Notes under the pieces: model-generated
Told to the model about the DNA's origin: nothing
Databases searched by the model: none
Seen by the model: the letters and a program-made list of their open reading frames with translations, nothing else
Made by a program: the position numbers and the translations under genes
Virus record (IMG/VR): IMGVR_UViG_3300031555_002904
DNA length: 64,000 nucleotides
DNA from: a virus
Lineage: Duplodnaviria > Heunggongvirae > Uroviricota > Caudoviricetes
Reading direction: 5' to 3' (one strand)
In this document: positions 18,780 through 60,214 of the stretch, one piece after another
Numbering within the stretch: position 1 is the stretch's first letter
How the letters are laid out: each line of letters begins with the position of its first letter

Positions 18780-19611
18780 TGGCTCTTGAGGGGTCGAGCC
18801 AATCGACCCCATCCCACTTGAAAATCCGCTTGGTGGTGCTTGCGGATTAGACAATTCATAATCTCCTTTCTGGCGGTCCGCCACTCCAAAATGGGGTGGC
18901 GGATTGTCGGCTTTTTCGGCGACTCGCTCACGGGCGCGCGAGCCGAAATTTTATTATACCACAGACCCCAGCAATTTGTCAATAGGCAAACCGCACAAAT
19001 AAATCAGCGCAAAATCTCCCATAATTGTGCAACATTACCACTTGCATTTTGGCTCAAGATGTGATAGAATACTATTGTCAAGAGGGGACAGCAACTCCCC
19101 ACAGCCGTGAGGTTGAGCCACAGAATGGCGAAAAAAAGTTGAAAAAACCTCTTGACAAACGGCACAAGATGTGCTATAATGAGTATGTCAAGAGGGGACA
19201 GCAACTCCACTCGGTAGGTCGGGTCAAGTTGATGGACAGACCGAAACGAAAAAAAGTTGAAAAAACCTCTTGACAAACCCCACAAAGTGTGGTATAATGA
19301 GTGTGTCAAGAGGGGAACACATCGAGATACTCCCCTATGGATTGGTGGAAACGGAAACACTGCGGATTGAAACCAAGACCCATTGACCAAGTATGTTCGC
19401 CAAAGGGTAGAACGAACGGCAGAATGGTGCGGTAGACTCAGGGCAAGTAAGGACAGAATACAATCCCAATGACGGCATGAGGTCTGTTGTATAATGAAAA
19501 AAGTCCGGAATTTTTTCAGAAAACCTCTTGACAAATTCAACCACTTGTGGTATAATCTAAATGTAATCAAGGACAGGTTCAAGTCCCTAAAACCGAAAGG
19601 AATTGATAACT

Positions 19612-58528: not shown

Positions 58529-58577
58529 ACTTGATTTTATAAAAAAAATATGATATAATATATATGTAAGATAAAGA

Positions 58578-58644
58578 AAGGCAGACACAGCAATCATAAT
58601 CCATTTCTTGACGCTCCATTCTAGAAAACGATTAAACCTGCCTT
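58578..58644 (+). ncRNA. ACAGCAA element (short)
   Basis: AAGGCAG/CTGCCTT stem directly after a promoter. Confidence 0.6.
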
Positions 58645-58714
58645 GAAGCAACCGATAACTGATAACCCTCCGCTGAGTAAGCCTGGTGGTTGCGATTTCG
58701 ACTAATATCAGTTT

Positions 58715-59325
58715 GAACCTTGAAAAGTTTTGCACCTCGGTGAAGAACGAATACCATCGTGCCGAGATCCTCATCCTGCCCGTGGGCGCCAGGAGTCCGA
58801 AAAGCAATTTACTGACGATAGCCAGTAATAGGTAGATCTGCATACAGTGATGTGTGCGGGCCGCCCTCCGAACGGAGGGGCCTGGATGGAGAGGAGTGCA
58901 AAGATAATCGCATCTAAAGATACCGTCTTATCGCTCTCGCAATAGACGCCCCTGTGGGGAATAAGCTATGTTAGGGATTAGCTGGTGACTGTTTCAAACC
59001 ATAGTATACCAATAAGAGAGTCTGCGTTGATGTCCGAGTAATCGGGCTATAAGGTAAGGTCGGGGTACGAGTAGCCCTATCGCAATGACGAGAAGAAAGA
59101 AATTGCTGTTTAGTGTATTTGGGTAATAGCAAAAATTATCAAATAATTCTGAATGGCGGGTGAAAGTTACAGGTAAACAACCCTGTGTAGGACTTGGCTC
59201 CAGTAGGAGCTGGGGCAAGAAGTTTAAGGGTCGCTCCCTTGAGCTCAGACTTGTCTCCCTAGTGATCGAATATAGGTGAAGGTTATAGAGAGTATGTCGA
59301 AGGACAGCAAAACTTTTCAAAGTTC
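58715..59325 (+). ncRNA. Large structured ncRNA, ROOL/GOLLD-like (~610 nt)
   Basis: 18/19-bp terminal helix GAACCTTGAAAAGTTTTGC / GCAAAACTTTTCAAAGTTC, many internal hairpins, no credible ORF, inside the tRNA array. Confidence 0.6.
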
Positions 59326-59332
59326 TCAATAT

Positions 59333-59472
59333 GAGTGGACTGGCGGAATTGGTAGACGCACCGGACCGGAAACGAATAGTGTCTTGGTCTAAAGCCGCTA
59401 ACAGCAATTCAAATCGGACAGTAAATCCGGCGCCTTATTGGCTTCTTGGTTCAAGTCCAAGGTCCCTCACCA
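59333..59472 (+). tRNA. tRNA-Tyr(GTA)-like gene with a 53-nt ACAGCAA insert (intron-like)
   Basis: Removing 59364-59416 gives an 87-nt class II tRNA with CCGGA-CAGTAAA-TCCGG and ACCA. Confidence 0.65.
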
Positions 59473-59806
59473 CGGCCCAAGGTTATTGTTGTAGTAGAGT
59501 TAGCCGCTACTGCGTATAAATAACTTTTTTGTTGAACAAGGCTATAGCGAAAGTCCTCGCGTGACGTATTGAGCCTCCAAGGACCGGTGCCTGCACCGGA
59601 CCCGTTTTCACGATGCGTCGGGAAGTGTCTAAGCGATCTGGGTTCCACCCGGGACGAGCGCAGACCGGTAGGTAGTCAAAGCTGAGGTTAGACATATACT
59701 TTGACAAGGCATTATATATTTCGGCGGACACCGTGGCCGGCGTTGGATAATTTATTTGATTTGGTTTTGAAGTATAGTAGAAACTAAAAGAAAAGAGGTT
59801 TTTATT

Positions 59807-60214
59807 ATGTTATTTGAAACTAATCGTGATAAGGGTCGCGCTGGTATGGCGATAGCAATCGCTTATTTTGGAGCCAATGGATATACAGTAAATGTGCCTC
59901 TAAATGATACTCAATGGTATGATTTAGTTATTGAAAAAGACGGTGAGTTCAAAACCGTTCAATGTAAAGCAACTGGCAGTGCTGATAATGTAGTTTCTAT
60001 GAAGAGTGCGGGTGGCACAAAAGGTAGTGTTTATGATTCTGTACTAAATCATCCTGTTGATTATTTGTTCTGCTTAGATGGCGAAATGCATATGTATGTT
60101 ATTCCAGTGCAAGATTTGCGAGATTATGGAGTAAGTAAACAAATTTCTTTGCGTACTCAAAAATCTGCAAATGGACAAGGTTTCCAAACTTATCAATATA
60201 TGGTGTCTTTGTAA
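59807..60214 (+). CDS. PD-(D/E)XK homing-type endonuclease (group I intron-associated family)
   Basis: KGRAG...GYTV.VP.ND...YDLVIEK...TVQCK. Confidence 0.8.
   Translation: MLFETNRDKGRAGMAIAIAYFGANGYTVNVPLNDTQWYDLVIEKDGEFKTVQCKATGSADNVVSMKSAGGTKGSVYDSVLNHPVDYLFCLDGEMHMYVIPVQDLRDYGVSKQISLRTQKSANGQGFQTYQYMVSL

What the first reader, a model, noticed from the sequence alone, without database searches (positions are those of the whole stretch)
59333..59472. tRNA-Tyr interrupted by a 53-nt insert too small for a group I/II intron
The insert (about 59364-59416; boundary ambiguous because CGGAC is repeated at both ends) contains the hairpin TAGTGTCTT-G-GTCT-A-AAGCCGCTA followed by ACAGCAA, the non-permuted form of the element. 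Removal gives an 87-nt tRNA-Tyr with an atypical A33. Known bacterial tRNA introns are self-splicing and much larger.
Basis: partly seen in the sequence, partly recalled or inferred. Interest (0 to 1): 0.8.

Follow-up and report, generated by a model that had tools for sequence, protein, structure and literature searches.

The report
tRNA carrying a Ro60-type RNA handle
A giant phage's tRNA-shaped gene really is interrupted by 53 bases, but the insert is most likely not an intron: it is a conserved "handle" hairpin that this phage family grafts onto tRNA-like RNAs encoded beside a Ro60-like RNA-binding ring protein.

Summary
Window 59333-59472 is a type-II tRNA body split by 53 nt (59364-59416). 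Removing them gives a cloverleaf that ARAGORN calls tRNA-Tyr(GTA), with A33 and a bulged acceptor stem.

It is not decay. A paralogue in the phage's second tRNA array has the same insert, a canonical Leu(UAA) loop and four compensatory acceptor pairs. Relatives in other phages (L023, L051, L053, L056) carry the same design with GAA, GUA or UAA loops.

The insert is the capped form of a "handle": a covarying helix followed by unpaired ACAGCAA. Elsewhere in these arrays the open form clamps circularly permuted tRNA-His and tRNA-Gly mimics and other small RNAs. Both arrays end at a DUF2828+vWA gene whose predicted fold matches Ro60/TROVE.

Best reading (about 0.5): an undescribed Y-RNA-like tRNA mimic that keeps its handle. 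A protein-spliced intron stays open (about 0.22). No RtcB or splicing endonuclease is encoded, but an RNA ligase is.

No expression data could be obtained. This scan has met the same handle family repeatedly on other DNA. I found no publication describing it.

The parts
59333..59363 (+). tRNA-like body, 5' part. It holds the acceptor 5' strand GAG(T)GGAC, a Leu-type D arm and anticodon-stem nt 27-29 (CCG).
   Evidence: The D arm is identical in the paralogue, and the acceptor strand changes in step with its partner.
59364..59376 (+). 5' linker of the insert (GACCGGAAACGAA). Its CCGG (59366-69) can pair with TCGG (59414-17), extending the anticodon stem.
   Evidence: Reading of the sequence. 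CC/GG at these places is kept in all six type-II homologues. The pairing itself is inferred.
59377..59400 (+). Capped handle helix: TAGTGTCTT, loop GGTCTA, AAGCCGCTA (8 of 9 pairs).
   Evidence: The same helix type has covarying sequence in 13 capped copies. Its top (..CTT-loop-AAG..) matches the ends of the open handles (AAG../..CTTG).
59401..59407 (+). Unpaired handle word ACAGCAA, directly 3' of the helix.
   Evidence: In 80 related loci it occurs 291 times on the gene strand and 82 on the other. Variants NC(A/T)GCAA were counted.
59408..59416 (+). 3' linker of the insert (TTCAAATCG).
   Evidence: It is less conserved in the paralogue.
59417..59472 (+). tRNA-like body, 3' part. It holds nt 30-31, loop CAGTAAA (GTA anticodon, A33), anticodon-stem 3' strand, long variable arm, T arm, acceptor 3' strand GTCCCTC, A73 and an encoded CCA.
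58712..59325 (+). ROOL RNA. It ends 7 nt before the tRNA-like body and is probably in the same transcript.
   Evidence: Rfam RF03087, 327.8 bits. The best promoter-like site is at 58531-58559.
58575..58652 (+). Open-form handle RNA at the start of the same transcription unit: AAGGCAG..ACAGCAA..CTGCCTT-G around a short AT-rich cargo.
59807..60214 (+). Free-standing PD-(D/E)XK endonuclease gene of the I-Ssp6803I family (135 aa), 335 nt downstream. It is a neighbour and possibly linked; it is not shown to be part of the RNA's function.
   Evidence: Pfam PDDEXK_5, E = 3.5e-16. It is 93% identical in the paralogous array.

Best explanation
The locus encodes a tRNA-shaped small RNA of the long-variable-arm Leu/Tyr lineage. 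A protein-binding 'handle' branches from the 5' strand of its anticodon stem, at about position 29/30.

The handle is a roughly 9-bp helix followed by unpaired ACAGCAA. The same module closes the 5' and 3' ends of about two dozen other small RNAs in the phage's two tRNA arrays. Here it is capped by a loop, so the tRNA body keeps its natural order and a free, encoded CCA end.

The RNA is probably made with ROOL from the promoter at 58531-58559. RNase P would then release it at 59333.

The handle is most likely kept, not removed. It is most likely bound by the phage's Ro60-like ring protein (DUF2828 + vWA), encoded at the end of each array. That would make a Y-RNA-like particle whose tRNA-shaped part docks to, or decoys, something that recognises tRNAs.

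Shown: the anatomy, the conservation and covariation, the kinship with the permuted forms, and the Ro60-like fold and position of the protein gene.

Inferred: protein binding, retention of the handle, RNase P release, and the cellular role.
For: 1. The gene is under selection, not decaying. The paralogue at rc-genome 396073-396211 has the same insert, identical D and T arms, and four acceptor pairs changed on both sides.
2. Homologues with the same design occur in phages whose Ro60-like proteins are only 60-70% identical (L023, L051, L053, L056). A second, Pro-like tRNA body carries the same capped handle at 29/30 in L016, L018, L019, L027, L055, L056, L062, L063 and L075.
3. The handle helix covaries: 11 distinct sequences, 87 of 96 positions paired.
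4. The handle also encloses cargo for which splicing has no obvious use. Examples are a tRNA-Asn-like RNA without CCA at 52.8 kb and short AT-rich hairpins at 54.6, 58.6 and 63.3 kb.
5. Open-handle siblings have the YrlA layout (T arm, sealed acceptor, D arm). The best one scores 38.6 bits with Rfam YrlA, E = 1.8e-5 over the 18-kb array scan (3.2e-7 on the 321-nt rescan).
6. Published Y RNAs are described as a 5'-3' stem flanking a bulge with a short conserved motif (PMC12135203). M. smegmatis YrlA is cut by RNase P and gains CCA while bound to Rsr (PMC4201824).
7. A DUF2828+DUF7788 protein (phrog_850, 'RNA-binding protein') follows both arrays. The 13 best PDB matches of its model are all Ro60/TROVE structures, aligned at full length, E = 9e-6 to 2e-3.
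8. In 80 loci fetched around relatives of this protein, the strict handle pattern occurs 118 times on the gene strand and once on the other.
9. The anticodon loop changes between homologues on a conserved body (UAA, GUA, GAA), and A33 recurs in the permuted relative in L065. Every handle-bearing tRNA whose anticodon I could read in this genome duplicates an anticodon that an ordinary gene also supplies. Both points fit a non-decoding paralogue.
Against: - No binding or expression data exist.
- The motif is ACAGCAA, not the CGAA/GNCGAA of known Y RNAs. Pfam's TROVE model does not hit the genome. The locus itself gets no YrlA match.
- The Ro60-like gene lies about 10 kb away, not next door.
- The 80 loci were chosen through that protein, so co-occurrence was not tested against a control here.
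- Joining the exons gives flawless cloverleaves in the paralogue, L051 and L055, and in the permuted His and Gly genes. They have U33, a purine at 37, matching identity elements and an encoded CCA. That is also what real split tRNA genes would look like.
- The phage encodes an RNA ligase.
Confidence: 0.5

Rival explanations
1. A protein-spliced tRNA intron. An unidentified endonuclease would recognise the helix+ACAGCAA module and cut at its base. That would leave a nick in the anticodon stem at 29/30, splinted by the 3' strand, for an RNA ligase to seal. The product would be a working tRNA. The permuted genes would mature through the same cuts plus RNase P and 3' trimming.
For: - In-silico joining gives canonical tRNAs: Leu(UAA), Tyr(GUA), Pro(UGG), His(GUG) with an extra 5' G opposite C73, and Gly(GCC).
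- The break sits at the same place, 29/30, in unrelated tRNA bodies.
- U33 and a purine at 37 are kept in 8 of 9 capped homologues although the anticodon varies.
- The phage encodes an RNA ligase: phrog_968, with a PHA02142 OB fold plus an RNA_ligase domain.
- Related phages carry many other tRNA inserts without a ribozyme. Phage tRNA introns of unknown mechanism are in print (PMC6784885).
Against: - The genome has no splicing endonuclease (PF01974) and no RtcB.
- I could draw no bulge-helix-bulge at the junctions.
- The module also flanks RNAs that need no joining.
- The window copy would give a tRNA with A33 and an irregular acceptor stem.
- A Leu-type body with a GUA or GAA anticodon risks mistranslation.
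- All these genes are redundant with ordinary ones.
- The duplicated GGAC at the 3' junction, conserved in all six type-II homologues, has no role in a simple cut-and-join.
Confidence: 0.22
2. A selfish insertion that disables a spare tRNA copy. The 53-nt module would be a mobile mini-element, perhaps spreading with the neighbouring homing endonuclease by protecting its own gene from cleavage, as in 'collaborative homing'. The interrupted tRNA itself would have no function.
For: - The CGGAC repeats at both ends resemble a target-site duplication.
- A PDDEXK_5 homing-endonuclease gene lies 335 nt downstream. A 57%-identical homologue lies 337 nt downstream of a capped-handle tRNA in L062.
- The tRNA is redundant.
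- The window copy has A33 and a bulged acceptor stem.
Against: - Four compensatory acceptor pairs, and invariant D and T arms, between the paralogues.
- The interrupted gene persists across distant phages.
- The helix covaries instead of being copied.
- The insert has no terminal inverted repeats.
- The spacer between tRNA and endonuclease is not conserved between G000 and L062. Most capped copies have no endonuclease gene nearby.
Confidence: 0.12
3. Mainly a processing signal. The tRNA-shaped fold would serve only as an RNase P site that sets the 3' end of the ROOL RNA ending 7 nt upstream. The insert would then be tolerated because the anticodon arm is irrelevant.
For: - ROOL ends at 59325 and the tRNA body starts at 59333, in both paralogous arrays.
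- ROOL and GOLLD are known to lie near tRNAs (PMC5737381).
- The acceptor and T arms are the best-kept parts.
Against: - None of seven related loci with capped or permuted homologues has a ROOL match.
- This reading does not explain why the handle is conserved.
Confidence: 0.08

Closest known systems
YrlA-type Y RNAs with Rsr/Ro60 (Rfam RF02553; Chen et al. 2014, PMC4201824), including M. smegmatis YrlA, which is cut by RNase P and receives CCA
   Same: Both are small RNAs that join a tRNA-like domain (T arm, D arm, acceptor) to a stem-bulge-stem module carrying a short conserved word. Both are encoded near a Ro60-family gene and occur in phages. The permuted siblings of this locus give weak YrlA matches.
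   Different: Here the module is an internal capped hairpin, so the tRNA keeps its natural order, a whole anticodon loop and an encoded open CCA end. The word is ACAGCAA, not GNCGAA. The protein is DUF2828, not detectable with Pfam TROVE. There are dozens of such RNAs per genome instead of one to four. The locus gets no RF02553 match.
Ro60 of Thermus phage phiLo with Yrl1/Yrl2 (PMC12135203; PDB 9KOP, 9L5Y)
   Same: A phage-encoded Ro60 ring with phage-encoded partner RNAs upstream of its gene. It is the best structural match of the DUF2828 model.
   Different: Those RNAs carry the CGAA motif and no complete tRNA. Sequence identity to the protein is about 16%.
Circularly permuted and split tRNA genes of Cyanidioschyzon merolae and Nanoarchaeum, and archaeal bulge-helix-bulge introns at non-canonical positions (from general knowledge; reviews found)
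   Same: tRNA genes occur in rotated or interrupted order with a helix at the break. Joining restores a canonical tRNA.
   Different: Those depend on a bulge-helix-bulge motif, the EndA endonuclease and RtcB. None of the three was found here. No such system is known in bacteria or phages.
Group I intron of tRNA-Leu(UAA) in cyanobacteria, plastids and phages
   Same: The same tRNA species is interrupted in the anticodon arm. Classical large inserts (735-896 nt) in tRNA-Leu(UAA) do occur in related loci.
   Different: Those are self-splicing, several hundred nt long, and inserted between U34 and A35. This insert is 53 nt, lies at 29/30 to 32/33, and has no ribozyme core.
'Enigmatic' tRNA introns of Lak megaphages (Devoto et al. 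2019, PMC6784885)
   Same: Published case of non-group-I inserts in tRNA genes of huge, stop-codon-recoded gut phages, including a tRNA-Tyr(GTA).
   Different: The Lak Tyr insert is 93 nt and follows the anticodon. No CAGCAA word occurs in their intron table.
Class I RNAs of dictyostelid amoebae (Kjellin et al. 2021, PMC7919456)
   Same: A short stem joins the 5' and 3' ends, an unpaired conserved word lies next to the 5' strand, and the cargo is variable. The paper's invariant positions (C6, C9, A10, A11 of an 11-mer) fit ..ACAGCAA.
   Different: These are eukaryotic RNAs of 42-65 nt with no tRNA cargo, and their reported partner is an RRM protein. The full 11-mer is recalled from memory, because the paper's text does not print it. 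Kinship is untested.

Membership tests
Y RNA / YrlA (RF02553) with Ro60 | A Ro60-family (TROVE + vWA) protein gene in the neighbourhood | tested here: met
   A DUF2828+DUF7788 gene follows both arrays, about 10 kb from this locus. The top 13 PDB matches of its model are Ro60/TROVE. Pfam TROVE itself gives no hit.
Y RNA / YrlA (RF02553) with Ro60 | A tRNA-like domain with T arm, D arm and acceptor stem | tested here: met
   The cloverleaf parts are present and conserved.
Y RNA / YrlA (RF02553) with Ro60 | A stem formed by the RNA's own 5' and 3' ends, with a bulge carrying GNCGAA/CGAA | tested here: not met
   The helix is an internal capped hairpin and the word is ACAGCAA. Sibling RNAs do have the terminal stem, but with the same different word.
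Y RNA / YrlA (RF02553) with Ro60 | A score at or above the Rfam gathering threshold (69 bits) | tested here: not met
   The locus gets no match at E<=10. The best sibling scores 38.6 bits.
Y RNA / YrlA (RF02553) with Ro60 | Physical binding to the Ro60-family protein | not testable with these tools
   This needs a gel-shift, pull-down or structure.
Elongator tRNA (RF00005) | A contiguous cloverleaf recognised by tRNA finders | tested here: not met
   Default ARAGORN and the Rfam tRNA model miss it. It is called only after the insert is removed or in intron mode.
Elongator tRNA (RF00005) | U33 and a regular 7-bp acceptor stem | tested here: not met
   The window copy has A33, against 79 of 80 T33 in this genome. 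Its acceptor stem needs a bulged T or has two mismatches. The paralogue meets both criteria.
Group I / group II intron | A ribozyme core of hundreds of nt; for tRNA-Leu(UAA), insertion between U34 and A35 | tested here: not met
   The insert is 53 nt, no Rfam intron or ribozyme model matches at E<=10, and the position is 29/30 to 32/33.
Archaeal/eukaryal protein-spliced tRNA intron | A bulge-helix-bulge at the junctions, an EndA-family endonuclease, and RtcB or a Trl1-type ligase | tested here: not met
   No bulge-helix-bulge could be drawn by inspection. PF01974 and PF01139 are absent from the 402-kb genome. Host enzymes are unknown. A different RNA ligase is present.
Dictyostelid Class I RNA | A terminal stem plus an 11-nt unpaired motif next to the 5' strand | tested here: inconclusive
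   The invariant positions given in PMC7919456 fit ACAGCAA. The motif letters are from memory and no model was available to score.

The most novel reading that the evidence does not exclude
Phages of this family run a protein-based tRNA splicing and permutation system, the first outside archaea and eukaryotes. The helix+ACAGCAA module, perhaps held by the Ro60-like ring, would mark where the RNA is cut. The anticodon-stem 3' strand would splint the resulting nick at 29/30. A phage RNA ligase would seal it, turning interrupted and circularly permuted genes into working tRNAs.
Probability: 0.2. Interest if true: 0.95.

Novelty: new variant of a known kind. Interest (0 to 1): 0.62.

Why it matters
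Y RNAs and Ro60 are conserved from bacteria to humans, yet their roles in microbes are poorly understood. This locus shows the putative Ro60-type binding module placed inside an otherwise complete tRNA. The same module occurs in open form around rotated tRNAs in the same genome.

That supplies a natural series: capped, permuted, and non-tRNA cargo. The series can be used to define what the protein recognises and what the tRNA part does.

It also warns annotators that short "introns" in phage tRNA genes may be protein handles instead.

If the rival reading holds, it would be the first ribozyme-free tRNA splicing in the bacterial world. Either result is directly testable with one RNA and one protein.

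Tried and rejected
- **ROOL docking.** ROOL has TTGCTGT (59103-09), complementary to ACAGCAA. It lies in ROOL's variable loop and is absent from the paralogous ROOL, so I rejected this idea.
- **Small self-cleaving ribozyme or group I remnant.** No Rfam match at E<=10. Only about six bases are conserved.
- **Bulge-helix-bulge intron.** I could not draw one, and EndA and RtcB are absent.
- **Transposon-like insertion with a target duplication.** There are no terminal inverted repeats, the helix covaries instead of being copied, and the GGAC repeat is conserved over long distances.
- **Integron attC-like cassette ends (TAGGC..GCCTA).** The variable covarying part of each stem argues for RNA pairing.
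- **Thermodynamic support.** The insert's folding energy is ordinary (z = -0.6), so the case rests on comparison.
- **Exact-word search of IMG/VR.** The hairpin gave four chance hits, and the exon-insert junction gave none.
- **Insert-less allele.** None was found among the genome and the 80 loci. The nearest relatives are the paralogue and the permuted L022 copy.
- **Conserved ROOL-tRNA synteny.** Not found in seven related loci.
- **Automatic alignment.** The MAFFT alignment of the six type-II homologues was poor inside the insert, so I counted helix pairs with my own script.

Full report
**Setting.** The window is part of a 402,311-bp IMG/VR virus record (G000:C1:205292-269291, minus strand). 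From 46.6 kb to its end it holds an array of 38 tRNA genes, nearly all with an encoded CCA. The array includes two CTA suppressor tRNAs, a drum RNA and a ROOL RNA at 58712-59325. The finding begins 7 nt after ROOL.

**Observation.** The sequence is as described. It has a type-II tRNA body whose D arm is typical of tRNA-Leu, a 53-nt insert, then the rest of the anticodon arm, a long variable arm, the T arm and ACCA.
- CGGAC occurs at both junctions, so the break can be placed anywhere from 27/28 to 32/33.
- Standard tRNA finders miss the locus.
- With the insert removed, ARAGORN calls tRNA-Tyr(gta).
- Two features are irregular. A33 is one: 79 of 80 ordinary tRNAs in this genome have T33. The other is an acceptor stem that needs a bulged T to form seven pairs.

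**A paralogue shows the gene is maintained.** The genome holds a second, diverged copy of the whole array (70-85% identity, same gene order).
- Its copy of this gene has the same insert, with the identical helix 5' strand and loop and the same ACAGCAA.
- Its loop is CTTAAAA, a canonical Leu(UAA) loop with U33. Its acceptor stem GAGCCGT/GCGGCTC is regular.
- That pattern excludes simple decay. It also shows that the window's GTA loop arose on a Leu-type body through three changes inside the loop.

**The insert is one form of a repeated module.** ACAGCAA is concentrated on the gene strand of the arrays.
- In most copies it follows the 5' strand of a 7-10-bp helix. The 3' strand of that helix lies 40-250 nt downstream and is followed by G. 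The consensus is (A/T)AG(G/A)C..N / N..G(C/T)CT(T/A)-G, and the middle of each helix covaries.
- Many copies start a few bases after a sigma-70-type promoter.
- The enclosed cargo varies. At 47.4 kb and 63.0 kb it is a circularly permuted tRNA: T arm, acceptor 3' strand, CCA, a short linker, acceptor 5' strand, then D arm.
- Joining the two halves gives tRNA-His(GTG), with the extra 5' G opposite C73, and tRNA-Gly(GCC). In both the break lies between 29 and 30. Earlier notes of this scan pointed me to these two genes, and I checked them myself.
- Other cargo is a tRNA-Asn-like RNA without CCA, or a short AT-rich hairpin.
- In the finding, the two helix strands are joined by the loop GGTCTA.
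- A tandem duplication of either form contains the other form in its middle, which gives a simple evolutionary route between the two. This is my inference.

**Relatives elsewhere.** A DUF2828 protein gene follows both arrays. Using it as a probe, I fetched 80 loci from IMG/VR out of 232 matches, at 59-84% protein identity.
- ACAGCAA occurs 291 times on the gene strand of these loci and 82 times on the other. The strict pattern (helix start plus word) occurs 118 times against 1.
- Capped handles inside tRNA bodies recur. Type-II homologues of the finding are in L023 (loop CTGAAAA), L051 and L053 (CTGTAAA, a canonical Tyr loop) and L056 (CTTAAAA).
- A Pro-like body is split at 29/30 in nine further loci, with word variants TCAGCAA, TCTGCAA and ACTGCAA.
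- Permuted versions of the same Tyr-like body occur in L022, L044 and L065. L065 again has CAGTAAA with A33.
- Across 13 capped copies the helix uses 11 different sequences, with 87 of 96 positions paired.
- I found no insert-less allele.

**The partner protein.**
- The 482-aa protein combines DUF2828 with a vWA-type DUF7788 domain and belongs to phrog_850, 'RNA-binding protein'.
- I built a model from 22 homologues (mean pLDDT 77). The 13 best PDB matches are all Ro60/TROVE proteins, aligned over the full length. They include Thermus phage phiLo Ro60, Deinococcus Rsr, and Xenopus and human Ro60.
- TM-scores are moderate (0.32-0.46), and sequence-level TROVE is not detected.
- Ro60 proteins are known to bind Y RNAs through a stem-bulge-stem with a short conserved motif. 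Bacterial and phage Y RNAs carry a tRNA-like domain, and one of them is cut by RNase P and receives CCA (PMC4201824, PMC12135203).
- The permuted siblings here give weak matches to the Rfam YrlA model.

**Weighing the readings.** The retained-handle reading explains several things:
- why one module serves such different cargo;
- why it sits at the ends of primary transcripts;
- why the anticodon is free to change on a conserved body;
- why every handle-bearing tRNA whose anticodon I could read in this genome is redundant with an ordinary gene;
- why a Ro60-like gene closes each array.

The intron reading is kept alive by three points. The cloverleaves obtained on joining are flawless. The break position is constant. 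The phage also encodes an RNA ligase. A nick at 29/30 would be splinted by the opposite strand, which suits a nick-sealing ligase; that point is my inference. Against the intron reading, the genome has no EndA or RtcB, I could draw no bulge-helix-bulge, and the window copy has A33.

A selfish-insertion reading is weakened by the compensatory changes. It does gain a little from the PD-(D/E)XK homing-endonuclease gene 335 nt downstream. A pure role as an RNase P signal for ROOL does not generalise, because related loci lack ROOL.

**Limits.**
- The related loci were selected through the protein, so the association between handle and protein is not independently controlled here.

**Novelty.** This scan has met the ACAGCAA handle many times on other DNA, including two other capped cases in tRNA-Ile and tRNA-Arg. 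Those notes agree with my reading but are not independent evidence. My literature searches found no description of the handle, of permuted tRNA genes in phages, or of DUF2828 as a Ro60 relative. The nearest published phage tRNA inserts, in Lak megaphages, are of a different kind.

Noticed in passing
G000 rc-strand 384148-402311 (outside the window); array A continues to about window coordinate 66.6 kb: The genome carries two paralogous tRNA arrays in the same gene order (70-85% identity). Array B runs to the end of the record, and its Ro60-like gene sits at the other end. The record is therefore probably circularly permuted, or the two arrays were joined in assembly.
   Followed up: partly
window 59807-60214 (+); L062:3156-3557: A free-standing PDDEXK_5 (I-Ssp6803I-family) endonuclease gene lies 335 nt after the capped-handle tRNA. 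A 57%-identical homologue lies 337 nt after a capped-handle Pro-like tRNA in L062, although the spacer between them is not conserved. Other tRNAs of this genome (Lys, Met) are split by 450-470-nt inserts that hold such genes.
   Followed up: partly
window 59473-59530: The 58 nt right after the CCA end are 100% identical between the two paralogous arrays, while the tRNA itself differs. This could be a gene-conversion boundary or a functional 3' element. It contains a hairpin GTAGTAG..CTACTGC, seen by eye. The terminator scan did not call it.
   Followed up: partly
window 59560-59800: A GC-rich stretch between the tRNA and the endonuclease gene has blocks conserved with the paralogue (for example CCAAGGACCGGTGCCTGCACCGGACCCGTTTTCA). 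It has no ORF and no Rfam match, so it may be another structured RNA.
   Followed up: no
window 47.4 kb, 52.8 kb, 59.4 kb; rc-genome 373898: Several handle-bearing tRNA mimics carry GUN anticodons: His GTG, Asn GTT, Tyr GTA and Asp GTC. This is the set modified with queuosine and cut by colicin E5-type nucleases. The window copy acquired GTA from TAA.
   Followed up: no
window 59417-59425; L065 around 6178: The A33 loop makes ACAGTAA, one base away from the handle word ACAGCAA. Loops with U33 (ACTGTAA) resemble the variant word ACTGCAA. The handle word itself looks like a Cys-type anticodon loop (CUGCAA).
   Followed up: no
G000:C1 about 186,280-187,700 (L089:1369-2787, minus strand): An RNA ligase gene (phrog_968; PHA02142 OB fold plus RNA_ligase domain) lies about 16 kb beyond the end of array A.
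   Followed up: partly
window 19060-19260: Two tandem units outside the array have a strong promoter followed by GTCAAGAGGGG-ACAGCAA-CTCC. The word ACAGCAA therefore also sits near the start of non-array transcripts.
   Followed up: no
L033:6104-6239, L064:6254-6389, L071:2567-2692; L038/L041/L047/L050; L040, L066, L068, L069, L080: Related phages hold other kinds of interrupted tRNAs. These include 49-nt inserts with GGCAGCAC after position 32, 112-121-nt inserts, and classical-size (735-896 nt) inserts in tRNA-Leu(UAA) that look like group I introns.
   Followed up: no
window 1-46000: None of the eight largest ORFs matches any Pfam family under table 11. With two CTA suppressor tRNAs present, the phage probably reads TAG as an amino acid.
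   Followed up: partly
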